Source of the DNA: Escherichia phage tunus
Sequence record: NC_049816.1
Strand: one strand, 5' to 3'
DNA length: 51,111 nt
Positions 1 through 46,228 of this stretch are shown here, in pieces. Below the pieces are notes generated by a model, which saw only the letters and a list, made by a program, of their open reading frames with translations, was not told where the DNA came from and did no database searches. Numbering within the stretch: the stretch's first letter is position 1; each line of letters begins with the position of its first letter. The position numbers were made by a program, and so were the translations under genes.

Positions 1-395
<395 letters not shown>

Positions 396-467
396 TCATT
401 CTCCCGTTATCTGGTTGGTGAATTATATCACCAACCATTATAAAAGTTTAGCTATTTGTTTAGTTTG

Positions 468-1523
468 TCACAGATACTGCCTGAATTGAGCACGAACCCA
501 ATCAGGAGTATCAAGATCAATTTCTGGTTGTCCGTTTGCATACGAAGGCCATTCATCTAACTGCTGGCAAACGTTGAACTTGTTGATCACGCTCATGTAC
601 TGGATGCGCCCGATCTTCAATTGCTCAATATTCATGCGGAAAGCAAGCGGCAAGTAAGGCTCTTTCTTCTCCTGCGCAAGCAATCTTACAATTACTGGCC
701 TTTCCTCGTCTGGATACGCCTTTTTGAATAAGTCATGTTGCAAAGCCATTTTAAGATAATAGCCGTGATTGTAAGCCAGGCGCTGGAAGTCAACCGGATT
801 TGCGCTAACCGTTGTTTTGTAGTCAGTGATAATCACCGCTTCTGGATAGGTGACTTCTTCATAAATCGGCCTGCCTTTTTCGTCGTAACCGTTAATGATT
901 GTTGCCTTTACATCCTTGTTTACGTCAACGTGATCAAGACGCACTTTTACTTTTACGCCGTTGATGATCCCAAATATTGACATTTCACGCTGCGCGGTTG
1001 GGCTGTTCATGCAAGCGTTATGCTCCGGTATGGCCTCAAGTACGCGCCGCATCGCTACACAGGCATCATAATCTTTAGCGTCTATTAACTGCACTCCGTC
1101 CGCTGCGGCCTGGCATTCTGCCATCATTTCGATAAGCCACCACACATTGAGATCCTCGCCGCACTTGTACAGCATTTCCAGTAATTCAGGGTATTGTTTA
1201 CCCGTCGTACCTTTCAGGCCAAAAGATTTCAGCTTTGATGCTAACGCCGTTTGGCTAGTGATCAGATCTTTAAAATCATCCTGCGACGGTGCGCGGCGAT
1301 ATGTTTTTTCGAATAGCTCCTTGCTTTCAAAGTTGGTATGCGACTGCGTACCGAAAACAAGTGCTTTAGTTTCCTGGCGCGGCTTGTACTTCCAGTACGC
1401 CGGGCAAGTGCTGTAAATCTCCGCCAGGCTGGAACCGCTGACATATTCAGCCGTCCACGCGTTAGGATCATGATAAAGCTCGTTGCTCATTTCTTCGCTA
1501 GTGTAGGCGTTAAAATCACTCAT
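468..1523 (-). CDS. PD-(D/E)XK exonuclease (RecE/YqaJ-like recombination exonuclease)
   Basis: 351-aa ORF, RBS AAGGAG; IITDYKTT-type PD-(D/E)XK motif; sits directly upstream of erf and ssb in one leftward unit. Confidence 0.65.
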   Translation of the reverse strand: MSDFNAYTSEEMSNELYHDPNAWTAEYVSGSSLAEIYSTCPAYWKYKPRQETKALVFGTQSHTNFESKELFEKTYRRAPSQDDFKDLITSQTALASKLKSFGLKGTTGKQYPELLEMLYKCGEDLNVWWLIEMMAECQAAADGVQLIDAKDYDACVAMRRVLEAIPEHNACMNSPTAQREMSIFGIINGVKVKVRLDHVDVNKDVKATIINGYDEKGRPIYEEVTYPEAVIITDYKTTVSANPVDFQRLAYNHGYYLKMALQHDLFKKAYPDEERPVIVRLLAQEKKEPYLPLAFRMNIEQLKIGRIQYMSVINKFNVCQQLDEWPSYANGQPEIDLDTPDWVRAQFRQYL

Positions 1524-1553
1524 CTTTAATGCTCCTTGTTGCTTTATGCGTGC

Positions 1554-1581
1554 ATTGTAGCCATTTGGTTGATTTAGTCAA
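1554..1581 (-). promoter_or_regulatory. sigma70-type promoter TTGACT-N16-TACAAT for the exonuclease-erf-ssb unit
   Basis: Near-consensus -35 and -10 hexamers about 30 nt upstream of the exonuclease RBS. Confidence 0.45.
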
Positions 1582-1948
1582 TAGCTGTTTTGTTTTTTCT
1601 GTTTTCTAAACGTTCTCAGATGGCAAGAAAACAGATTTGACTCATAAGTTAATGATTAATATGTGTTATTTTTCTTGTTCCCCTGTTCTCTCAGATACGC
1701 CGGATTATATACATACACATGAATGATGGCACATACAGATACTCAGAAAGAAAAATCACCACAAACAACCAAAACCACAAGAAACGCAGACAACAAGAAA
1801 AAACAAATATACATACATAAATAAATAAACTATTGATTTTATATGTATATATCTATTTTATTGATTGTTTATTGATCTTATGTTGTATAAAATTTGCGCT
1901 AAATTTACGCCGCCTTAAATTCGATAACACCGGAAAACAAAAAATAAC

Positions 1949-1993
1949 AAATAGCACTTTTTGCTAAACGCGATGCCCAAGATCGTGTATAGT
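1949..1993 (+). promoter_or_regulatory. Phage promoter module (21-bp box, variant GCTAAAC, + 19-bp spacer + TATAGT)
   Basis: Match to AAATAGCACTTTTTGTTAAAA box, 19-bp spacer, -10 TATAGT; about 30 nt upstream of the 2025 start. Confidence 0.5.
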
Positions 1994-2024
1994 TGAAAAC
2001 AACAACAACTAAGGAGATATAAAG

Positions 2025-2294
2025 ATGAAAAAGTTAATCGCAGTTATCGCCACTGTAGCCGCTCTGACAGGATGCGCAGCGTCGCCTACTGGAAACTTCA
2101 AGGAGATCGATTGCACGGCAAAATTTAACGTTAAAACATTCCCTGTTAACGGATTCCATGAAGTCAAAATTAATGCAGTCCGCGAAAACAGATTCAGCCA
2201 AAAGCAATACAGGTTGAGCGTTGACAATAAAGAAGTTAAATTTATCAACCGTTGGCAAAATGAAAGTAAATTTATTGATTTGAGGTGTAATTAA
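2025..2294 (+). CDS. Small lipoprotein, candidate superinfection-exclusion (Cor/Llp-like) protein
   Basis: 89 aa, RBS AAGGAG; signal peptide MKKLIAVIATVAALTGC with lipobox LTGC. Confidence 0.55.
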   Translation: MKKLIAVIATVAALTGCAASPTGNFKEIDCTAKFNVKTFPVNGFHEVKINAVRENRFSQKQYRLSVDNKEVKFINRWQNESKFIDLRCN

Positions 2295-2572
2295 TGGCGC
2301 AATATGGTTATGCAATATATGACGATCGAGGAAGGGAAGTTACAGGACTTTTAACGCCTGTTTTCTTCCTTGATAAATTCACTCAGCCATCAGGTAGCAA
2401 GACTTACCAAAACAGGCCGCCAGGTAAATCATTGAAAGCAATATATGTTGGCATGAATTCCTGGCGTGGTGGCGACCCTGGCGCACCAAACTTAGGGGTG
2501 AGTGGCGACACCGTTACATGGAGTGGGCTTTCTGGATCTGATTCAAGATATATATATACTTTTTGGGGGTGA
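2294..2572 (+). CDS. Hypothetical protein
   Basis: 92-aa ORF; start overlaps upstream stop (TAATG); no recognisable motif. Confidence 0.4.
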   Translation: MAQYGYAIYDDRGREVTGLLTPVFFLDKFTQPSGSKTYQNRPPGKSLKAIYVGMNSWRGGDPGAPNLGVSGDTVTWSGLSGSDSRYIYTFWG

Positions 2573-2574
2573 TA

Positions 2575-3189
2575 ATGTACGGGATGAGTATAAAAAAATC
2601 AGACGGATCGTTATGGTTAAGTCCAGATTTCACTCCAGTTAATCTAATTGATCGGGCCGTAATATCTGCTAATACCGGAACCGTTTTTACTTCGTCAATT
2701 CCTGTTGATAGGGTATGTTTTTTCTTTGTTAGATTGACCGCTAAATCATACATATCATTCACGCAATTTAACAATGGTGGAAGGCACGCAATAAGACTTG
2801 ATAGATCTGATAATCAGGGTGAGGTTATTGTTTATGCTTTTAGTAATATGGTGACTCCCCCAGGTAGTCACGGCATAGCGTTTTATAATGCTCATGGTGA
2901 AATGGTTTATCATGGAAAAATGAGGCCGCTAGATGCAAAGCAAGTAGGAGTAAGCGGGATCGCATTTGATGTTAACATGGGCTATCCTTGCGCCATAATG
3001 CCATCACTGACAGCATTAAACTCTGTTCCTAATCCGGCTTTAGGTGGATTCATGATTTTTGAGTCTCAAGCTGCCGCGTATGGTAACGGGATCTACTCTT
3101 TTTCTAGGCAGGTTGCACAAACTCCTGGACCTGTTGGTATTTACACCGCTTCATCTGTTTTGGTTATAAATGCATCACACTATGATTAA
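2575..3189 (+). CDS. Hypothetical protein
   Basis: ATG at 2575 preceded by GGGGGT; converges on the J-like gene at a shared terminator. Confidence 0.45.
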   Translation: MYGMSIKKSDGSLWLSPDFTPVNLIDRAVISANTGTVFTSSIPVDRVCFFFVRLTAKSYISFTQFNNGGRHAIRLDRSDNQGEVIVYAFSNMVTPPGSHGIAFYNAHGEMVYHGKMRPLDAKQVGVSGIAFDVNMGYPCAIMPSLTALNSVPNPALGGFMIFESQAAAYGNGIYSFSRQVAQTPGPVGIYTASSVLVINASHYD

Positions 3190-12714: not shown

Positions 12715-12785
12715 CTTAAGATCTCCTTATAGCACTTTTTGTTAAAAGTGGAATTAATTTATTTGATAGATTGATTTTACAGGAA

Positions 12786-16472: not shown

Positions 16473-16522
16473 TAGATGATAGCACTTTTTGTTAAACGTG
16501 CAATGTTTTTTTATGCTATTAG

Positions 16523-21118: not shown

Positions 21119-22687
21119 CTATTTATTGCGTAGACCAGCCAGCTTTTTCATCCTTGCTACCGGATCATCTGCCAAGTTCATTTCGACGTTAACAGCATCA
21201 ACTATATTATCGACAATATCATCATGGGGATGAGAATCGTCAAAAGTGAACGCTGCAACCTCTGCCAGTATCTCAGGTAACATGGGATGACTTTCTGGCA
21301 GTGCCACACGTCCGGCCCTCATTACTGGCGCGGCGTCCATTGCTCGCGTTACCTTGTCATTGCTTCGCTGAACGGGATTTATATCAATCGGGATCTTCTT
21401 TTTGGCCCCCTGAATCAAACCCGTGCCGCTGGCCTTATCCTCAATGTGGATACGTCGCAAGCTGCCACACTCCTTATTGCGCTTCCAGCACTGATTAACG
21501 AAGGCAATAAAATTTAATTCAAGATCCGGCGCTTCCCACTTTCCGCGAATGCCATCAATGAAGTAAACGCGATTCTTATACATCCCCCAATAACAAAAAA
21601 CTGAATAGTCGTTAAGCTCTCCGGCCTTCTGCGCGGTATCACCAGTAATAAATGTGTATTCAAAGCGATCCGGTTTAGGAAGTGCGCATTTTTCGCCGCT
21701 GCCGTAATACTGGAACCACTCTGTTTTAAACACGTTGCCGCCAAGCGCGATGGGTTGCTGTTGGTACTGACTGGCGAACGTATAAGGATCTGCATTGCGC
21801 AATGCAAGCAATTCCTCCGCGCTTTCCTTCGCAGGCCAAAATGAATAATGAGCAACGCCATCTATCATCACTGGCTTACTTGACAACACATCACGATCAA
21901 ATTCAGGCTTCAACCAATCAGGAAGCGTTTCGCGGTATTCTTTCGTAACCAGCGCCGGAATACTCACAACTTTAAACTCAATACCACCCATCCCGCCATT
22001 AAGCATAAACCAGGTGGAATCATTAACGTGTAGTCGCTGTTGCACCATAACAATCGGCGTAGTGTCTTTCATTCGACGCGATCGCACTGTGTTTTTTAAC
22101 CGCATGTGGATCGCCTCACGCTTGACCTTAGAAAGCATATCATCAGGCTTGTCTGGATCGTCCAGAACCAGCATACCAGTAAAACCATCATCCATATAGC
22201 CGCCACGCAAACCTGTTACCTGTCCGCCAATAGAACGTGAGTTAACTTGCAATTTAACCTTGCCGCCATCCGTAACTATGAGATCTTTTGCGCTCGCCTT
22301 TGCCAGTTTTCCTGGCCATAGCTCTTGCCACTCAGGAGAACCGATAATCTCCTTTATCCTGTTGCTGTTTTGCTGGACAAGTCCATCACTAAACGAAAGG
22401 TTAAGGTTTCTCACCTTCCGACTTTTCAATGACGCGTAGGGTGACATGTGGATCGAGAAAATCTCAGTCTTACCGCTACCTGGCGTAATGTTGAAAATCA
22501 CATTCTGCGACTCTCCATTGATGATCTTCTCTACCTCACTGCACAATAAGCTAAAATGCCAGTTGCTCTGGAATTTTTGCCCCTGCAATAACTGAAACCA
22601 GATTCTGATCATCTTTTCGAATGAATGCTCACTGATTTCTTTAATGGCTCGCTTTTGCGCCGCCGTCAAATCTTCCCATATGATCAT
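21119..22687 (-). CDS. Terminase large subunit
   Basis: 522 aa; Walker A NITPGSGKTE; start overlaps small subunit stop (TAATG). Confidence 0.9.
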   Translation of the reverse strand: MIIWEDLTAAQKRAIKEISEHSFEKMIRIWFQLLQGQKFQSNWHFSLLCSEVEKIINGESQNVIFNITPGSGKTEIFSIHMSPYASLKSRKVRNLNLSFSDGLVQQNSNRIKEIIGSPEWQELWPGKLAKASAKDLIVTDGGKVKLQVNSRSIGGQVTGLRGGYMDDGFTGMLVLDDPDKPDDMLSKVKREAIHMRLKNTVRSRRMKDTTPIVMVQQRLHVNDSTWFMLNGGMGGIEFKVVSIPALVTKEYRETLPDWLKPEFDRDVLSSKPVMIDGVAHYSFWPAKESAEELLALRNADPYTFASQYQQQPIALGGNVFKTEWFQYYGSGEKCALPKPDRFEYTFITGDTAQKAGELNDYSVFCYWGMYKNRVYFIDGIRGKWEAPDLELNFIAFVNQCWKRNKECGSLRRIHIEDKASGTGLIQGAKKKIPIDINPVQRSNDKVTRAMDAAPVMRAGRVALPESHPMLPEILAEVAAFTFDDSHPHDDIVDNIVDAVNVEMNLADDPVARMKKLAGLRNK

Positions 22688-23214
22688 TAAAGTTGCTCCA
22701 GAATATCAATAACAGCCTCTTTCACCTCATCGGCAGTTACTGCGTCAATGCTTGCATTAGTTGCCGCGCTCGCTTCAACGCTCACTGTTGCTGGCTTCTC
22801 TACTCCGATCTCTTTACCGATAAATCCAGCGTTAATCATGTTATTTGCCGCAAGCTGGAATTTTTGCTCGTAAATTACTTTATCAACAAACTCCATCACA
22901 TCGCAGAATCCAGGCTCTTTACGCCATTTGCTTACGGCAGCCTCAGTCACGCCGAGATACAAGCTGAATCCGTTAACCGTGAAAACGCGAGGCTTGTAAA
23001 CTCTGCTCTCGTACACGTCACCCTGAAAGGAAGCAGTTTCAGCCGCCTGAATGTGATTCTCTTCGGCCCAAGTGAAATAGCGGATCGCCATGTCAAAAAC
23101 CTGTTCCGGCGTGTACTTGTGGCGGTTGTTTAGCGTGACAATATCGCCATAAGTTTTATTGTATAACTCTTTGAAATTTAATGCCTTTACAGCAGGCTCA
23201 ACGTTTTTAGCCAT
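22687..23214 (-). CDS. Terminase small subunit (putative)
   Basis: ATG at 23214 (MAKNVEPAV) with RBS AAAGGAGG; immediately upstream of large terminase. Confidence 0.6.
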   Translation of the reverse strand: MAKNVEPAVKALNFKELYNKTYGDIVTLNNRHKYTPEQVFDMAIRYFTWAEENHIQAAETASFQGDVYESRVYKPRVFTVNGFSLYLGVTEAAVSKWRKEPGFCDVMEFVDKVIYEQKFQLAANNMINAGFIGKEIGVEKPATVSVEASAATNASIDAVTADEVKEAVIDILEQL

Positions 23215-23242
23215 TGTTAATCCTCCTTTGGTTAGATGCCTG

Positions 23243-23251
23243 ATTATACCA
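23243..23251 (-). promoter_or_regulatory. Extended -10 promoter element TGgTATAAT upstream of small terminase
   Basis: Perfect TATAAT with TG at -15/-14, just downstream of a terminator hairpin. Confidence 0.35.
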
Positions 23252-23263
23252 GACAACGGGCAA

Positions 23264-31150: not shown

Positions 31151-31418
31151 TTGTCTCGACGGTCATATGTTCTGTCTTCGTGCCTTTGCCATTGCTTTTC
31201 GACACTTCCCAGCTAGTAGCGCCCTTGCAGTTGGTGAAGTAAACAGTGCGATCGTCATAGAATCGGTAAACGGTGCAACCGTCAGCGGTGAATAGCTCCC
31301 TTACGCTGTAGTCATCGCCAGGGTTAGCCATCTGCACATTGCCAACATGCGCGCCATCTTCTTTGCATCCGGTCAGGAATGCCATTGCCGCCAAAACGCT
31401 GATTAATGCCTTTTTCAT
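31146..31418 (-). CDS. Small lipoprotein, second candidate exclusion / surface lipoprotein
   Basis: 90 aa, RBS AAGAGGAAG; signal peptide MKKALISVLAAMAFLTGC with lipobox. Confidence 0.55.
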   Translation of the reverse strand: MKKALISVLAAMAFLTGCKEDGAHVGNVQMANPGDDYSVRELFTADGCTVYRFYDDRTVYFTNCKGATSWEVSKSNGKGTKTEHMTVETK

Positions 31419-31879
31419 TGCTCTTCCTCTTTGATGATTTCGCGGATCATATCCTGGTAGCGGCTTACGCCCTCACAAGCTCCAGCCAGTTTATCCCCTT
31501 CCAGGTCAACGATATTCGGGATTGCTGCCAGTATGCGATCGGCAAACTTTTTGATCGCCCTTGCCTTGATGGCTGGCAATTCTTCGGGTGTGATGATTTT
31601 CCTTTTCGATTCGCGGACCATGCGGAAAACGTAAAATTTATCATCTTCCGTTTCCTCTACCTTGATGCTTACCCGACCTGCGGCCCTTACTTCTGGAACG
31701 CGGTTGATAATGGTCCGGCTGTAGGATGAACTGCGCGTGATCTTGTAGCAGTCGTCACCGCTTAACATTCCGGCCAGGTCAATTAGTGACATTTTATACT
31801 CTTCAATATCGCCACTAGCCAGGCGGCGACCAAGCTCGCGAAGCCAATCGCAATAGTCCTTAGTGGTCTTCTGTTCCAT
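31415..31879 (-). CDS. Hypothetical early protein (first gene of leftward early unit)
   Basis: ATG at 31879 with RBS GGAGGAAAGG; the track's upstream ATG overlaps the promoter -10. Confidence 0.5.
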   Translation of the reverse strand: MEQKTTKDYCDWLRELGRRLASGDIEEYKMSLIDLAGMLSGDDCYKITRSSSYSRTIINRVPEVRAAGRVSIKVEETEDDKFYVFRMVRESKRKIITPEELPAIKARAIKKFADRILAAIPNIVDLEGDKLAGACEGVSRYQDMIREIIKEEEQ

Positions 31880-31910
31880 TTCCTTTCCTCCAGTTGTTGA
31901 CTGTTGGCGC

Positions 31911-31939
31911 ATTATAAAAGCTATTTGGTGCGTGTCAAT
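31911..31939 (-). promoter_or_regulatory. sigma70-type early promoter TTGACA-N17-TATAAT (leftward)
   Basis: Consensus hexamers; resembles the promoter at 1554-1581. Confidence 0.55.
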
Positions 31940-32374
31940 GTTTTTGTTGTATTCAAAACGTTACCAATATCGAAAAACTACAAAATCATGCGCAAGTTAT
32001 TGATTTCGCGGCTGTTATTTTTCTGTTCACTCTGTTAACGCAATCCGCCGGAAAAAGTATATATACATATGCAATCCGCCGCGCGCGCAACTATCCATAT
32101 ATACCCACACACAACCACACCATAACCAACAAAAAGCACTGTAACAGTGAGAACAAAAAGAAAACATTATAGATATATATAAATAAATAATCTTTATTTT
32201 CAATGTATTATAGAGGATTTTCTTTGTTTTTTCCGTTTTCGCTACACCGGAAAACCGCGCGGAAACACGCCGCCTGAAATCGGTAACAGGGGTGAACAAA
32301 AGACAACAACCACTGACAGCCAGGCGGAAAAGTGAGGCAAGAGGGGAAGGTTTCACTATCTCCCCTGCAACCAA

Positions 32375-32463
32375 TGATTAAACGTGATTACTTTTCTCAT
32401 CAAATTTGCAAAGGCAATCATCATTTTGACGTGATTTGATTACGAATGATTACTTTTGATTAT
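32375..32463. repeat. Phased GATTA(C) direct repeats (iteron-like)
   Basis: Five TGATTA/GATTAC copies at about 32376, 32386, 32438, 32448, 32458, the last three exactly 10 bp apart, just upstream of the rightward promoter module. Confidence 0.45.
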
Positions 32464-32491
32464 TTCGATCGCAATCCTGGCGATAACCGTC

Positions 32492-32537
32492 AAATAGCAC
32501 TTTTTGTTAAAACTCAGGCCACCTGATCGGGTACATT
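32492..32537 (+). promoter_or_regulatory. Phage promoter module (box + 19-bp spacer + TACATT)
   Basis: Exact box; transcript would start near the conserved CATCGAAACGAACC. Confidence 0.5.
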
Positions 32538-32577
32538 ACACACATCGAAACGAACCGCACTTACTGAGGACCAAACA

Positions 32578-32880
32578 ATGATTAACATGAACCTGTTCAC
32601 CGCTAAAGACCACGAGAATATGGCAGCACTGGCTGACCTGTTCGAAACAGCAGAAATGGCTGAACTGTTCATGACTGAGCATGAATTCCAGGACGGCATC
32701 AGCAATGCCATTGAAACAAATTTTGGCGACGCTCGCGTTACTGGTGCAATGTTTGCAAATATCGCGCGTAAATTCTTCCAGGCTTACCGCGACGCTCGCC
32801 ATGTAAAGGGCACGTTTGGATCTGCGAAAGACACCGCTGAAACTATCCGCGCTTACATTGAGCGCCACGCAAAACAATAA
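32578..32880 (+). CDS. Hypothetical acidic early protein (first gene of rightward early unit)
   Basis: 100-aa ORF with weak Shine-Dalgarno GAGGAC; Asp/Glu-rich N-terminal half. Confidence 0.5.
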   Translation: MINMNLFTAKDHENMAALADLFETAEMAELFMTEHEFQDGISNAIETNFGDARVTGAMFANIARKFFQAYRDARHVKGTFGSAKDTAETIRAYIERHAKQ

Positions 32881-32924
32881 ATAGCACTTTTTGTTAAAAG
32901 CTGATCGGGATAACCTGGTATAGT
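32879..32924 (+). promoter_or_regulatory. Phage promoter module (box + 19-bp hairpin spacer + TATAGT)
   Basis: Exact box; spacer palindrome GGGATAAC...GTTATCCC; followed by CATCGAAACGAACC. Confidence 0.5.
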
Positions 32925-32959
32925 TATCCCATCGAAACGAACCGCTCAGGAGATAGTAA

Positions 32960-33232
32960 ATGAACATCAGCAAAACCACTTTCAATTTCGCTAAGCGTCA
33001 CGGTCTTGATCTGACTGTTGAAGATTTTGGCGATGTTCTGCAACTCTGCATTTGGGAAGCAGATAACGATTGCGAGTGGCTTTGCTCTTATCGTATTAAC
33101 TACGATTGCTTGACCTGGCACGGCAATATCTATCTGCCGCAAGAAGTGAAAGAAGAATTGCCAGCGACTATCAACAACGAAGTTTTCTTGCGCCAGGTGC
33201 TGAAATTTATCAGTAAGGAGATCAAAAAGTAA
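32960..33232 (+). CDS. Hypothetical protein
   Basis: 90-aa ORF with weak Shine-Dalgarno AGGAGA close to ATG. Confidence 0.45.
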   Translation: MNISKTTFNFAKRHGLDLTVEDFGDVLQLCIWEADNDCEWLCSYRINYDCLTWHGNIYLPQEVKEELPATINNEVFLRQVLKFISKEIKK

Positions 33233-36849: not shown

Positions 36850-38430
36850 ATGTTTTCATTAGAAACGAACAAATTAACTCCACAGCAAATAATCGCTATG
36901 GCTGAAAGCCAGAACCTTTCACCAGTTCGCGTATCAATTCAGGCTAACGGCTATCGCCAGTCGTCCAGCTTTTGGGGCGACGTAAAGGATGTGAATAGCG
37001 GTCACGATCGCTACCCCGTTATTTCTCTTGGTAATGATATTGATGTTGTCGGCAAGTTATCACGCAGCATTGCGCGATCCGTTCAATTCCCTGAATCATC
37101 GGCTTACATGCACTTTATCGGCTGCATTTCTGCCGCTATGCTTGGACGCTTTACGGTTGACTATCACGGAACCGATCAGCCGACTGCGCTTTACGTCGTT
37201 ACAAGCCAGCCGCCGTCAACTGGTAAATCTGCGATCAACAGCATGGCTATTGCTCCGATGATTGCGGAAGTTGAGAAGATCAACGAGAAACGCCGCAAGG
37301 AAAGAAAGAAAATACAGGCAAAGCTGGCAGGTCTTGCAAAGGAGATGAAAAGCGAAAGATCCGGCGCTGATATGGAATCTCTATACCAGGAAAAAGAGGA
37401 TCTGGAGGAAAAGCTGGAAAAAATGTGTGATATAACTTTTCCTGTTTCAGATACAACTCCAGAAGGCTTGGCGAAAATCAACAACAAGCAAGGTAACTTT
37501 GCCGTAATTTCTGATGAAGCAACAAGTATTAACAGTCTGTTAGGTTTGACCTATGCAAATAGCGAAAGGAAGACTAACAGTGAGTTAGTGCTTAAGGCGT
37601 GGGATAATGGTCACGTATCAATTGCCCGTGCTAATGCTGACAATAATATGAGTTTTCGCGCGCTTGGATGTATGAGCGTTATAGCCCAGGATGAAACGAT
37701 AAGCGGAATCATGGACGCTGGATCGCGAGGCATCGGTGTTAGTGAGCGTTTTTTGTTGGTCCGCGAGGAATCATTCTTAGGCCGTCGCTCATTCATTGAT
37801 GAAAATGGTGATTCTACCTATGAGGCGGTGGATTCTGAATTGAAAGCCCAATATTATCAATTGGTGCATAACATCATGAGCGAATCAAATATATCGCTGA
37901 AAATAAGCCGTTCAGCTATGCGAGTGCTCAACATTGCTCGCCAGGATATGGAGCCGCATCTTGCAGACGGAGGAAAGTATTCTCATACAATGTTACGCGG
38001 TGCGCTGGGTAAAATGGATAAACAGGTGATCAGGCTTGCTTCCGTCCTGCATGTTATCCGTAACTGGTTTAATCCTGCCGGATACCCGCAGAAGTCGAAA
38101 GAGATCGACGTGGAAACAATGCAAGAGGCGTTGATCATGTTTCAGGAATTGAGCAAAACATACATTAGCGCCGCCAATGCTTCTGGTTATGCTGGTGATG
38201 ATGCTGAAATGGGTAAATTGATTGAATTGATCACGAGGCACGGCAAGGCTAACAAAGGGATCCTGAATATTCGCGCCCTGTACGAATCAGCGAGAAAGGT
38301 AAAACCTTTCGTTGGTCAGGCTGGCGTAATGAAAAGGATAGAAGGGCACTTACTGCCAATGCTGGAAGAAAGAAATTATGTTTGTGTGATTAATGGTGTT
38401 ATTTTTGTCAATCCAATACTGCTGGGATGA
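36850..38430 (+). CDS. P-loop NTPase with SF3-helicase/AAA-like Walker motifs (function unknown)
   Basis: 526 aa, RBS AAAGGAGA; Walker A VTSQPPSTGKSA and Walker B FAVISDEATS about 110 aa apart; Lys/Glu-rich coiled segment between them. Confidence 0.6.
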   Translation: MFSLETNKLTPQQIIAMAESQNLSPVRVSIQANGYRQSSSFWGDVKDVNSGHDRYPVISLGNDIDVVGKLSRSIARSVQFPESSAYMHFIGCISAAMLGRFTVDYHGTDQPTALYVVTSQPPSTGKSAINSMAIAPMIAEVEKINEKRRKERKKIQAKLAGLAKEMKSERSGADMESLYQEKEDLEEKLEKMCDITFPVSDTTPEGLAKINNKQGNFAVISDEATSINSLLGLTYANSERKTNSELVLKAWDNGHVSIARANADNNMSFRALGCMSVIAQDETISGIMDAGSRGIGVSERFLLVREESFLGRRSFIDENGDSTYEAVDSELKAQYYQLVHNIMSESNISLKISRSAMRVLNIARQDMEPHLADGGKYSHTMLRGALGKMDKQVIRLASVLHVIRNWFNPAGYPQKSKEIDVETMQEALIMFQELSKTYISAANASGYAGDDAEMGKLIELITRHGKANKGILNIRALYESARKVKPFVGQAGVMKRIEGHLLPMLEERNYVCVINGVIFVNPILLG

Positions 38431-45751: not shown

Positions 45752-46228
45752 ATGAAAGATGCACGAATTGCGGTGTCTACGGGTGAGATCGACAAGCGCA
45801 CTATTAACGGTAACAACGGAACGCGACGAGGTAAAGACAAAAAGCCACGAAAACACCGAACCGGATTTCTTATCCTGCGAGATGAGGTAAAAGCAAGCCT
45901 GAAATCTCGCTTGGATATTCTGATCGAGTATTATGGCGGTGTTCCTGCTATGGCTCGACGTCTACGCGTATCTCAGCAAGTCGTTAACCAATGGCGAAAG
46001 CGTGGTATGATTTCAGCCGCTGGAGCACAAAAGGTGCATAACGACTACAAATATAATGGATGCAAAGGATACCGCGCATCATTTTGTCGTCCAGATCTGC
46101 GGTTTGATTCTAACGGTAAGCCTCTTACTACCCGTTGCGACAAATACGAGATGTTGCGCGTAGTCAAAAATTCAGACTACGAACCAGGCGGACGATTCTA
46201 CAAAGGTGATAACAGCACAAATAGCTAA
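45752..46228 (+). CDS. HTH DNA-binding protein (Cro/CI-like helix-turn-helix)
   Basis: 158 aa, RBS GAGGTG; HTH segment MARRLRVSQQVVNQWRKRGMIS; basic N-terminus. Confidence 0.55.
   Translation: MKDARIAVSTGEIDKRTINGNNGTRRGKDKKPRKHRTGFLILRDEVKASLKSRLDILIEYYGGVPAMARRLRVSQQVVNQWRKRGMISAAGAQKVHNDYKYNGCKGYRASFCRPDLRFDSNGKPLTTRCDKYEMLRVVKNSDYEPGGRFYKGDNSTNS

What the first reader, a model, noticed from the sequence alone, without database searches (positions are those of the whole stretch)
31940..32520. Control region R2 with helically phased GATTA(C) repeats: candidate origin or regulator-binding array
R2 repeats the R1 architecture (sigma70 TTGACA-N17-TATAAT leftward, CA-rich tract, ATAAATAAATAA, CCGGAAAAC, rightward promoter module). 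It adds two GCAATCCGCCG copies and five GATTA(C) direct repeats, three of them spaced exactly 10 bp apart (32438, 32448, 32458). Such phased repeats are typical of iterons or cooperative regulator-binding sites.
Basis: partly seen in the sequence, partly recalled or inferred. Interest (0 to 1): 0.6.

Follow-up and report, generated by a model that had tools for sequence, protein, structure and literature searches.

The report
Probable packaging start site of T1-like phage
The phased GATTA(C) repeats are real and lie where relatives of this T1-like phage start filling their heads with DNA, so they are more likely the docking site of the packaging enzyme (pac site) than a replication origin or a gene switch.

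Summary
The window is a T1-like coliphage (Drexlerviridae, Warwickvirus, 99.9% to vB_Eco_SLUR29). R2 (31880-32577) is its 698-bp divergent non-coding region. Five same-strand TGATTA hexamers in 88 bp never arose in simulations (maximum 3), and their helical phasing has P = 0.006. It is the densest such cluster in the genome. The densest TGATT/AATCA cluster also falls in the same sub-segment in T1, TLS and Stevie.

The half-site is conserved but its arrangement is not: direct repeats here, TTAATCA-NN-TGATTAA in Hanrivervirus-like phages, TGATTAATCA in WaterSpirit. The array sits between a family-wide AT-rich core and the rightward early promoter. That is where T1 and TLS are numbered from their mapped pac end, where PhageTerm places the ends of MSK and SU57, and where PHB17, Pocis76 and YSP2 are opened within 11 nt of a conserved GGTTTCAC|TATCTCCCC motif (window 32356/32357). 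The small terminase is P22-gp3-type.

Best reading (about 0.55): pac recognition array with the cut about 18 bp to its left and packaging leftward. Rivals: early-promoter operator (0.25), origin iterons (0.07). A separate R1/R2-shared module (AT core flanked by inverted TGTTCAC words, identical to P4 origin repeats) is the better origin candidate.

The parts
31911..31938 (-). Leftward early promoter, TTGACA-16-TATAAT, about 32 nt upstream of the leftward gene start (ATG at 31879).
   Evidence: Consensus scan gives 12 of 12. The -35 TTGACA and a (T/G)ATAAT -10 are kept in orkinos, atuna, WaterSpirit and pSf-1.
31993..32005 (-). Match to the IHF core consensus (AATCAATAACTTG), inside an AATCA...TGATT inverted pair.
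   Evidence: There are only 6 matches in the genome, and one each falls in R1 and R2. Function is inferred only.
32023..32039 (+). CTGTTCAC-TCTGTTAAC: two direct 7-mers 9 bp apart, identical to or one base off the core of the P4 'ori type 1 repeat'. Part of the module shared with R1.
   Evidence: (family D14). TLS and Stevie carry TGTTCAC at the same distance (-145 to -180) from the AT core in R1 and/or R2.
32040..32081 (+). Two GCAATCCGCCG copies 31 bp apart.
   Evidence: Kept in orkinos, partly in WaterSpirit, absent from atuna and pSf-1. No function is assigned.
32104..32139 (+). CA-rich, G-poor tract.
   Evidence: Read directly. An equivalent tract is present in R1 and in relatives.
32140..32245 (.). 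AT-rich (TA)n core, 88% A+T, including ATAAATAAATAA. It is the family-wide conserved centre of both R1 and R2.
   Evidence: It matches 193 phage records of several genera, some at more than one place per record (227 places in all). TATATA words occur 52 times against 2.3 expected in ten R1/R2 regions.
32283..32307 (-). GTAACAG / GTGAACA / GACAACA words at 8-10 bp spacing. GTGAACA (32292-32298) is the inverted partner of TGTTCAC at 32024.
   Evidence: (family D2).
32346..32368 (.). Conserved motif AAGGTTTCAC|TATCTCCCCTG. The series-initiating pac cut is predicted at 32356/32357, so the packaged end would read GTGAAACCTTCC... on the minus strand.
   Evidence: PHB17 and Pocis76 begin at the homologous point, and YSP2 ends 11 nt from it. 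T1 has GGTAACAC|TAGATCCCCCC 66 bp from its position 1.
32370..32393 (+). Array unit 1: ACCAATGATTAAACGTGATTACTT, with two TGATTA sites 10 bp apart.
32415..32421 (-). Inverted word GCAATCA (TGATTGC on the minus strand) between the two units.
32430..32465 (+). Array unit 2: a partial GTGATT followed by three TGATTA(C/T) sites at exact 10-bp spacing.
   Evidence: The partial site varies in orkinos and L015, whereas the five full sites show one change in 25 instances.
32492..32512 (+). R2 copy of the Drexlerviridae 21-nt repeat (aaATAGCACTTTTTGTTAAAA), the upstream element of the rightward early promoter.
   Evidence: Published for TLS with unknown function (PMC11447400).
32532..32577 (+). -10-like TACATT (32532-32537) and the conserved leader CATCGAAACGAAC... 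ahead of the ATG at 32578.
   Evidence: Alignment of the 19 modules. This stretch is invariant in five relatives.

Best explanation
The TGATTA array (32370-32465) is the recognition part of the phage's pac site. Several DNA-binding domains of the ring-shaped small terminase (P22 gp3 family, gene 22687-23256) would contact the hexamers, which all face one side of the helix. The large terminase would then make the series-initiating cut about 18 bp to the left, in the conserved GGTTTCAC|TATCTCCCC motif (about 32356/32357). Headful packaging would proceed leftward in window coordinates, through the AT core and the leftward early genes. Shown here: the array's statistics, its uniqueness in the genome, family-wide conservation of the half-site, the terminase family, and the coincidence with the pac ends or record ends of seven relatives. 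Inferred: that the terminase binds these hexamers, and the exact cut point in this phage.
For: 1. Statistics. Five same-strand TGATTA in 88 bp is beyond every simulation, and the sites are helically phased. It is the densest GATTA and TGATT/AATCA cluster in the 51-kb window.
2. Same sub-segment in relatives. In T1, TLS and Stevie the genome-wide densest TGATT/AATCA cluster falls in the same part of the R2-equivalent. In T1 and TLS it spans record position 1.
3. Mapped ends. T1 is numbered so that its terminal redundancy is 1..2800. TLS is numbered from a restriction-mapped pac and starts AGATTTTGTGATTGAAATTGATTTGATTTGATTAGATTTG.
4. Sequencing-based ends. PhageTerm places the MSK start at 36,862 (PMC8421802). 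SU57 position 1 came from PhageTerm plus a coverage step (PMC7718038). The two points are 18 alignment columns apart, 150-170 bp from the early-promoter repeat.
5. Record boundaries. PHB17, Pocis76 and YSP2, from three genera, are opened within 11 nt of one conserved motif that aligns to window 32346-32357, just left of the array.
6. Half-site conservation. The half-site is kept while its arrangement changes. The palindrome TTAATCA-NN-TGATTAA has invariant arms and four different centres.
7. Uniqueness. A pac site must be unique in the genome. The array occurs once: there are 7 words upstream of the R2 promoter copy against 0-2 for the 18 others, and R1 has no array.
8. Terminase family. The small terminase matches PF16677 GP3_package and is about 30% identical to P22-like gp3.
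Against: No virion-end or read data exist for this phage or for any close (class A) relative. Why PHB17, Pocis76 and YSP2 are opened where they are is not documented in anything I could read. Position 1 of T1 and of TLS rests on physical maps of limited resolution, and the TLS authors chose AGATTT by analogy with P22. In P22-like phages pac lies inside the small-terminase gene (annotated in phage L), whereas here it would be about 9 kb away. T1 also has a GTTAATC x3 array on the other side of the AT core, just upstream of the leftward promoter, which fits a promoter-linked role better. Pocis76 has few TGATT words near its start, and Braunvirinae (SU57, MSK) use partly different words. The 16-bp palindrome in Hanrivervirus-like phages looks like a classical dimer operator.
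Confidence: 0.55

Rival explanations
1. The array is an operator or upstream activating array for the early promoters. A phage DNA-binding protein (for example the Cro/YdaS-like HTH protein, 45752-46228) or a host factor would bind the TGATTA sites cooperatively and switch the rightward, and perhaps the leftward, early promoter.
For: The array ends 28 bp upstream of the 21-nt promoter repeat. T1 has GTTAATC x3 about 25-55 bp upstream of its leftward -35, and TAATCGTAATCG abutting an ATAGCAC repeat. The window has an AATCA...TGATT pair upstream of the leftward promoter. Class B relatives carry TTAATCA-NN-TGATTAA with invariant arms and a variable centre, the signature of a dimeric HTH site. A Cro-like HTH protein is encoded.
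Against: None of the other 18 promoters of the same type has the array, and the regulator's own promoter region has none in the window and SU57 and one word each in T1 and TLS. A dimeric regulator would not normally tolerate a change from 10-bp direct repeats to tail-to-tail or head-to-head inverted sites between close relatives. This reading does not explain why the record ends and PhageTerm ends fall here.
Confidence: 0.25
2. The GATTA(C) repeats are iterons of a replication origin, bound by a phage initiator that opens the nearby AT-rich core.
For: The direct repeats are phased at 10 bp. An 88% A+T core lies 130-230 bp away. R2 is a divergence point of transcription and a local GC-skew minimum. 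The phage encodes a primase and two helicases.
Against: The repeat core is 6 bp, against the usual 17-22 bp. The arrangement is not conserved. R1 has the same AT core but no array. The Pfam scans of the primase, both helicases, the HTH protein and the R2-flanking genes found no Rep/O-type initiator, and the TLS authors found no iteron-type origin either. There are no DnaA boxes in the interior of R2. The GC skew simply follows gene orientation.
Confidence: 0.07
3. The array has no function of its own. It would be a chance cluster, or relics of decayed gene starts: ATGATTA codes Met-Ile, as at the real start ATGATTAAC at 32578.
For: Two of the five sites read ATGATTA. Short unterminated-looking frames of 16-35 codons cross the array. 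TGATTA is mildly over-represented genome-wide and biased to the coding strand.
Against: The cluster is never reached in simulations. No Shine-Dalgarno sequence precedes any of the short frames. TGATT arrays without ATG recur at the same place in TLS, Stevie, YSP2, PHB17 and T1. R2 is 97-99% identical across the genus, more conserved than the gene to its right.
Confidence: 0.03

Closest known systems
pac region of coliphage T1, TLS and Rtp-like phages (Drexlerviridae)
   Same: Same genomic place: the roughly 700-bp untranslated region between the two divergent early gene blocks. The architecture is shared (sigma-70 promoter, AT core, TGATT-word array, 21-nt-repeat promoter) and so is the gp3-type small terminase.
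   Different: In none of these phages has the recognised sequence been defined. The TLS authors proposed AGATTT by analogy with P22. Earlier authors are reported to have pointed to ATATA repeats. The window's version, five TGATTA at exact 10-bp spacing, is specific to its own group of Warwickviruses.
P22 / Sf6-type pac recognised by gp3-family small terminase
   Same: Homologous small terminase (PF16677; about 30% identity) and headful packaging from a pac site.
   Different: From my own knowledge, P22 pac is a single asymmetric 22-bp site. It lies inside the small-terminase gene, as annotated in phage L. Here the candidate is a repeated hexamer array about 9 kb from that gene. Apart from GATTT there is no sequence similarity to GAAGATTTATCTGAAGTCGTTA (by eye).
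P1 pac (TGATCA/G hexamers) and SPP1 pacL/pacC/pacR
   Same: From my own knowledge, not tested here. These are short repeated boxes in two groups next to the cleavage point, with helical phasing and bending, and with recognition on the non-packaged side (SPP1 pacL). The P1 hexamer TGATCA differs from TGATTA by one base.
   Different: P1 PacA and SPP1 G1P are not gp3-family proteins. P1 pac depends on Dam methylation of the GATC inside each hexamer, whereas TGATTA has no GATC and only one GATC lies near the array (32469).
Satellite phage P4 ori / crr (type 1 repeats TGTTCACC bound by the alpha primase-helicase). This relates to the R1/R2-shared module, not to the GATTA array.
   Same: The P4 record annotates 16 'ori type 1 repeats', mostly TGTTCACC, in two separate cis regions. 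crr contains CTGTTCACACTGTTCACC, close to the window's CTGTTCACTCTGTTAACG. The window primase is homologous to the alpha N-terminal primase domain (E = 2e-14).
   Different: There are only 2-3 copies per region here. No homologue of the alpha C-terminal origin-binding domain (Pox_D5) was found. T1 and SU57 use other words (TGTTACAC; TTTACGC).
Drexlerviridae 21-nt intergenic repeat (aaATAGCACnnnTTGnTAAAA)
   Same: The R2 'rightward promoter module' is one of 19 copies in this genome and matches the published TLS consensus.
   Different: The R2 copy is the only one preceded by the TGATTA array.

Membership tests
pac site of a headful-packaging phage | Lies at the physical start of the packaging series (the virion DNA end, or the read-start peak). 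| tested here: inconclusive
   This is met at region level by homology. T1 and TLS position 1, the MSK and SU57 PhageTerm ends, and the PHB17, Pocis76 and YSP2 record boundaries all fall between the AT core and the early promoter. No end data exist for this phage.
pac site of a headful-packaging phage | Occurs only once in the genome. | tested here: met
   It is the densest cluster genome-wide and the only one of its kind.
pac site of a headful-packaging phage | A headful-type terminase with a DNA-recognising small subunit is encoded. | tested here: met
   The small terminase matches PF16677 GP3_package (43.4 bits, cutoff 29.4). The large terminase matches Terminase_6C.
pac site of a headful-packaging phage | The small terminase binds the site specifically, and the large terminase cuts nearby. 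| not testable with these tools
   Needs EMSA or footprinting and end mapping.
Replication-origin iterons | Several direct repeats of about 17-22 bp with conserved sequence and spacing. | tested here: not met
   The conserved core is 6 bp. The arrangement changes between close relatives (direct, tail-to-tail, head-to-head).
Replication-origin iterons | A cognate initiator (Rep/O-type) gene, usually adjacent. | tested here: not met
   The flanking genes are DUF7174 and small unknown proteins. No Rep/O family was found in the proteins scanned. The TLS authors also report none.
Replication-origin iterons | An adjacent AT-rich unwinding element. | tested here: inconclusive
   An 88% A+T core lies 130-230 bp away, but R1 has the same core without the array.
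Operator array of a phage transcription regulator | The sites overlap or abut the core promoter they control. | tested here: inconclusive
   The nearest site ends 28 bp upstream of the 21-nt repeat and 66 bp upstream of the -10.
Operator array of a phage transcription regulator | The same sites recur at other co-regulated promoters, or at the regulator's own promoter. | tested here: not met
   There are 0-2 words upstream of the other 18 modules. The regulator-helicase intergenic region has 0 words in the window and SU57, and 1 each in T1 and TLS.
P4-type ori/crr (for the R1/R2-shared module) | Multiple copies of the octamer TGTTCACC in two cis regions. | tested here: inconclusive
   R2 has TGTTCAC (32024), TGTTAAC (32033) and an inverted TGTTCAC (32292). 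R1 has only the degenerate TGTTCCC and TGTTCTC. TLS and Stevie have exact copies in both R1 and R2. The genome-wide count is not above chance (5 against 5.9).
P4-type ori/crr (for the R1/R2-shared module) | An alpha-type protein with a C-terminal origin-binding domain. | tested here: not met
   Only the primase part is homologous (alpha residues 20-263). No Pox_D5 or C-terminal match was found. A winged-helix-like C-terminus is predicted on the DUF3987 helicase, whose fold is MCM-like.
Drexlerviridae 21-nt intergenic repeat | Matches aaATAGCACnnnTTGnTAAAA, is intergenic, points with transcription, and lies about 76 nt upstream of a start codon. | tested here: met
   32492-32512 matches exactly, and the ATG is at 32578.

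The most novel reading that the evidence does not exclude
R2 would be a two-in-one element. The first part is an origin-like module duplicated in R1: a (TA)n unwinding core flanked by lineage-specific inverted iterons. These are TGTTCAC in Tempevirinae, identical to the P4 ori/crr type 1 repeat, and TGTTACAC in T1. They would be read by a split P4-alpha-like machinery, namely the primase plus an MCM-like DUF3987 helicase with a winged-helix tail. The second part, directly abutting it, is a hexamer-array pac site. T1-like phages would then start replication and packaging from one about 400-bp control block, with R1 acting as a crr-like second cis site.
Probability: 0.15. Interest if true: 0.7.

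Novelty: new member of a known kind. Interest (0 to 1): 0.42.

Why it matters
T1-like phages are very common coliphages, notorious laboratory contaminants, generalized transducers and therapy candidates. Even so, neither their pac sequence nor their origin has been defined; a 2024 re-annotation of TLS still assigns pac by analogy with P22 and reports no origin. This analysis narrows pac to a concrete, testable pair of elements: a conserved cut motif at about 32357 and a phased TGATTA array. If confirmed, it would be the first defined recognition site for a gp3-family small terminase that lies far from its own gene and is built of phased hexamers. It would also give a rational point at which to open and compare Drexlerviridae genomes, to predict transduction hot spots, and to build packageable plasmids.

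Tried and rejected
- **RNA genes:** Rfam at gathering thresholds and ARAGORN found no RNA gene in the window.
- **Hairpin:** the apparent hairpin at 32333-32366 folds no better than shuffled sequence (z = 0.17). I dropped it as a structure and kept it as a conserved sequence motif.
- **Small ORFs:** frames of 16-35 codons cross the array, but none has a ribosome-binding site.
- **Terminator:** a small terminator-like hairpin on the minus strand (32149-32137) is not conserved in atuna or pSf-1.
- **GC skew:** it only mirrors gene orientation.
- **Host-factor sites:** there are no DnaA boxes in the interior of R2. The IHF core consensus does not occur in the array and occurs once in the left part of R2.
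- **P22 pac:** apart from GATTT there is no similarity to the published sequence (by eye).
- **Origin-binding domain:** I looked for a homologue of the P4 alpha origin-binding domain by tblastn, Pfam and PDB sequence search and found none.
- **Literature:** searches for the 21-nt repeat as a string, for old T1 pac papers, for TGTTCACC and for PHB17, YSP2 or Pocis76 gave nothing usable. The T1 genome paper is not held.
- **Terminase covariation:** I considered testing whether the small terminase covaries with the array class. I did not pursue it, because all classes keep the same half-site and the test could not discriminate.
- **IMG/VR:** the scan gave only five extra loci.
Full report
**Identity and setting.** The window is a T1-like siphovirus (Drexlerviridae, Tempevirinae, Warwickvirus). 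Bases 31400-33000 are 99.9% identical to Escherichia phage vB_Eco_SLUR29. R2 is the 698-bp gap between a leftward gene (ATG at 31879, a DUF7174 protein) and a rightward gene (ATG at 32578). SLUR29 annotates nothing in this gap. In about 40 Warwickvirus records the gap is 97-99% identical over 679 of 698 bases, while the gene to its right is replaced. The non-coding DNA is therefore at least as constrained as its neighbours.

**Checking the observation.**
- The leftward promoter is a perfect TTGACA/TATAAT pair, but with a 16-nt spacer rather than 17 (31938-31911, minus strand).
- GCAATCCGCCG occurs twice, at 32040 and 32071.
- ATAAATAAATAA and CCGGAAAAC occur in both R2 and R1.
- R1 (1524-2025) shares about 75% identity with R2 over the CA-rich tract and AT core.
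- TGATTA occurs at 32375, 32385, 32437, 32447 and 32457, all on the + strand. These form two copies of a 24-nt double-site unit.
- In 150 genome-composition and 8000 R2-composition Markov simulations, the largest same-strand cluster within 90 bp was 3, against 5 observed.
- The five sites lie within 69 degrees of one face of a 10.5-bp helix (resultant 0.913, P = 0.006).
- It is the densest GATTA or TGATT/AATCA cluster in the 51-kb window.

**What else is in R2.** The 'rightward promoter module' is one of 19 copies of ATAGCACTTTTTGTTAAA (0.13 expected).
- Each copy follows a stop codon.
- Each lies 20 nt upstream of a -10-like hexamer, with no -35, often with a hairpin around the -10.
- Each is followed by a conserved leader, CATCGAAACGAAC.

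This is the 21-nt repeat published for TLS, whose function its authors list as an open question (PMC11447400).

The centre of R2 (32140-32245) is an 88% A+T, (TA)n-rich core. It matches 193 phage records from Escherichia, Klebsiella, Salmonella, Citrobacter, Hafnia and other hosts; some records match at more than one place (227 places in all), consistent with copies in both R1 and R2. TATATA occurs 52 times against 2.3 expected in ten R1/R2 regions from five genomes.

**Conservation of the array.** Five relatives carry the same array (atuna, orkinos and two IMG/VR contigs among them).
- The five full TGATTA sites show one change in 25 instances.
- The partial sixth site (GTGATT) and a spacer base do vary.
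- Hanrivervirus-like phages (pSf-1 and three IMG/VR contigs) instead carry TTAATCA-NN-TGATTAA. Its arms are invariant and its centres are CT, CC, AC or TC. A further TGATTA(A/G)TGG follows.
- WaterSpirit carries TGATTAATCA.
- TLS, Stevie and YSP2 carry runs of AATCA at 5-6-bp spacing. T1 carries CAATCA/TGATTA words, including CGATTACGATTACG.

In the window, T1, TLS and Stevie, the genome-wide densest TGATT/AATCA cluster lies in the same sub-segment of the R2-equivalent, between the AT core and the rightward early promoter. So the half-site is conserved across the family and its arrangement is not. This points to a protein with several loosely coupled DNA-binding modules rather than a rigid dimer.

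**The lead that changes the interpretation: pac ends in relatives.**
- T1's GenBank record is opened inside its R2-equivalent, and its terminal redundancy is annotated as 1..2800.
- TLS is also opened there. Its authors mapped pac by restriction analysis and numbered the genome from AGATTT. The record begins AGATTTTGTGATTGAAATTGATTTGATTTGATTAGATTTG, which is inside the TGATT array.
- T1 position 1 splits a GATGTGATT|GTTGC repeat.
- The SU57 paper chose position 1 from PhageTerm plus an abrupt coverage change. It states that pac lies in the corresponding untranslated region in T1-like phages (PMC7718038).
- The MSK paper reports a PhageTerm start at 36,862 (P = 1.6e-9; PMC8421802).
- In my alignment of MSK, Rtp and SU57, the two PhageTerm-derived points are 18 columns apart. 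Both lie 150-170 bp from the early-promoter repeat, next to a TGATT/GCAAT word array.
- The records of PHB17 (Changchunvirus, China) and Pocis76 (Hafnia phage, Latvia) begin at exactly homologous points (GTGAAACCTGG... and GTGACGTGTAG...). YSP2 (Tlsvirus), deposited in the opposite orientation, ends 11 nt away.
- The window sequence homologous to these boundaries is AAGGTTTCAC|TATCTCCCCTG (32347-32367). It holds most of the invariant columns of my five-genome alignment in that stretch.
- T1 has GGTAACAC|TAGATCCCCCC 66 bp from its position 1. TLS has AAAGTTTTCAC about 80 nt from its position 1.

I could not find out how the three depositors chose their starts. Independent choice of the same 11-nt window in a 50-kb circle, in two orientations, is hard to explain except by a real DNA end.

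**Mechanism proposed.**
- The small terminase (22687-23256) belongs to the P22 gp3 family: PF16677 at 43 bits, and about 30% identity to ST64T and phage L gp3.
- From established knowledge of small terminases, these proteins form 8-11-mer rings whose DNA-binding domains can contact successive, helically phased sites on wrapped DNA. Known pac and cos recognition regions (SPP1 pacL/pacR, P1 pac, lambda cosB) are built of short repeated boxes beside the cut.
- The window has that anatomy. A conserved cut motif lies at about 32357. Two TGATTA sites follow 18 and 28 bp to its right, and a group of three (plus a partial fourth) follows 80-100 bp to its right, all on one helical face.
- The window is in the reverse orientation relative to T1. 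The first headful would therefore run leftward, and the array would sit on the non-packaged side of the initiating cut, as SPP1 pacL does.
- The array is unique in the genome, as a pac site must be. There are 7 TGATT/AATCA words in the 130 nt upstream of the R2 promoter copy, against 0-2 for the other 18 copies.

I put this reading at about 0.55. The binding partner and the exact cut are inferred, not shown.

**Rival 1: an early-promoter operator (about 0.25).**
- For: the array is close to the promoter. T1 has a GTTAATC x3 array just upstream of its leftward promoter. The class B palindrome looks like an operator. A Cro/YdaS-like HTH protein is encoded next to the primase.
- Against: the array is absent from all other promoters of this type and from the regulator's own promoter. 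The site arrangement is plastic. This reading does not explain the DNA ends.

The two roles are not mutually exclusive.

**Rival 2: origin iterons (about 0.07).** The core is 6 bp, the arrangement is not conserved, and R1 lacks the array. The Pfam scans of the proteins I examined found no Rep/O-type initiator, and there are no DnaA boxes.

**Rival 3: chance or decayed gene starts (about 0.03).** The simulations and the cross-family recurrence argue against it.

**A better origin candidate, found on the way.**
- In TLS and Stevie (R1 and/or R2) and in the window's R2, TGTTCAC lies about 145-180 bp left of the AT-core centre. Its reverse complement, GTGAACA, lies about 80-110 bp right of it. An unbiased 7-mer scan ranks it first in TLS and second in Stevie.
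- T1 uses TGTTACAC instead, with about eight copies in its R1 and R2. pSf-1 pairs TGTTATC with GATAACA. The word therefore changes by lineage on both sides together.
- TGTTCACC is annotated 16 times, with minor variants, as the 'ori type 1 repeat' in the ori and crr of satellite phage P4. P4 crr contains CTGTTCACACTGTTCACC, against CTGTTCACTCTGTTAACG in the window.
- The window's primase is homologous to the primase part of P4 alpha (24% identity over 253 residues, E = 2e-14). No homologue of alpha's C-terminal origin-binding domain was found.
- The DUF3987 'helicase' (36850-38430) gives a confident model (pLDDT 87). Its best structural matches are MCM2-7 subunits (E = 4e-6 to 1e-4, TM about 0.35). 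Its last 80 residues form a winged-helix-like helix-strand-helix-helix-strand-strand unit.

Within this window alone the evidence is thin: two exact TGTTCAC sites in R2, degenerate ones in R1, and a genome-wide count at chance. I report it as a lead, not a finding.

**Comparison with what is known, and novelty.** That T1-like pac lies in this untranslated region is already in the literature. What the recognised sequence is has not been established. The proposals I found are a P22-like AGATTT (TLS) and, reportedly, ATATA repeats (T1 and Rtp authors, as quoted). Linking a conserved cut motif with a phased TGATTA half-site array is, as far as the library I could search shows, new. It remains a new member of a known kind of element (a pac site), not a new kind. 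It differs from the P22 paradigm for this terminase family in two ways: it lies about 9 kb from the terminase gene, and it is repetitive.

**Verdict.** The best explanation is a pac recognition array, with moderate confidence. Interest is moderate (0.42): the finding is ordinary in kind, but it makes a long-open practical question about T1-like phages directly testable.

Noticed in passing
window 1951, 12729, 16479, 21105, 25323, 28128, 29331, 30669, 31132, 32494, 32881, 34186, 36104, 36778, 38940, 42185, 43234, 45723, 47285: There are 19 copies of the Drexlerviridae 21-nt repeat ATAGCACTTTTTGTTAAA. Each lies 20 nt upstream of a -10-like hexamer with no -35, often with a G+C hairpin enclosing or abutting the -10, and is followed by a conserved CA-rich leader (CATCGAAACGAAC). 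The repeat looks like a promoter class that depends on an upstream element. Its function is an open question in the literature (PMC11447400).
   Followed up: partly
window 12729-12746 (+) and 16479-16496 (+); T1 (L006) 15087-15069 and 18850-18832: Two copies of the 21-nt repeat point against the late genes. One points antisense into the 3' end of the major-tail-protein gene; the other points into the gene upstream of the major capsid gene. The same two antisense copies exist in T1. The TLS paper says all its copies point with transcription.
   Followed up: no
window 32578-32880 with promoter copies at 32494 and 32881: The window and SLUR29 carry an extra 100-aa gene with no Pfam match, plus a duplicated promoter module. 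In relatives the R2 promoter drives the 90-aa gene that lies at 32960 here. This looks like a moron-type insertion by recombination between promoter repeats.
   Followed up: partly
window 32140-32245 and 1790-1870 (R1): A (TA)n-rich, 88% A+T core (ATATATAAATAAATAATCTTTATTTTCAATGTATTATAG) is conserved in 193 phage records of many genera, some with more than one match per record. Its function is unknown. A TATAAT on the minus strand inside it (32214-32209) is kept in 4 of 5 aligned relatives.
   Followed up: partly
window 32024-32039 (+) and 32292-32298 (-); TLS, Stevie and T1 R1/R2 equivalents: Inverted TGTTCAC words flank the AT core at conserved distances. They are identical to the P4 'ori type 1 repeat' core, and the word changes by lineage (TGTTACAC in T1, TGTTATC/GATAACA in pSf-1). 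R1 and R2 may be a pair of origin-like cis sites.
   Followed up: partly
window 36850-38430 (+): The DUF3987 'DNA helicase' gives a confident AlphaFold model (pLDDT 87). Its best PDB matches are MCM2-7 subunits, and it ends in a winged-helix-like domain (residues about 450-520).
   Followed up: partly
window 1826-1838 (-) and 31993-32005 (-): Only six matches to the IHF core consensus WATCAANNNNTTR exist in the genome, and two of them lie in R1 and R2.
   Followed up: no
GenBank records MG0656xx (for example MG065643, MG065657, MG065685): Seventeen or more records named 'Campylobacter phage', with host Campylobacter jejuni, match this E. coli Drexlerviridae control region and its small terminase closely. 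The host assignment looks doubtful.
   Followed up: no
window 32040-32050 and 32071-32081: The two GCAATCCGCCG copies flank GTATATATACATAT. They are kept only in the nearest relatives. The word GCAAT also recurs in the pac-side arrays of SU57, MSK and Rtp, and at 32415 and 32472 here.
   Followed up: no
MN850582 (phage ityhuna) record end, equivalent to window about 32166: One relative's record is broken inside the (TA)n core. This is probably an assembly break at low-complexity sequence rather than a physical end.
   Followed up: no
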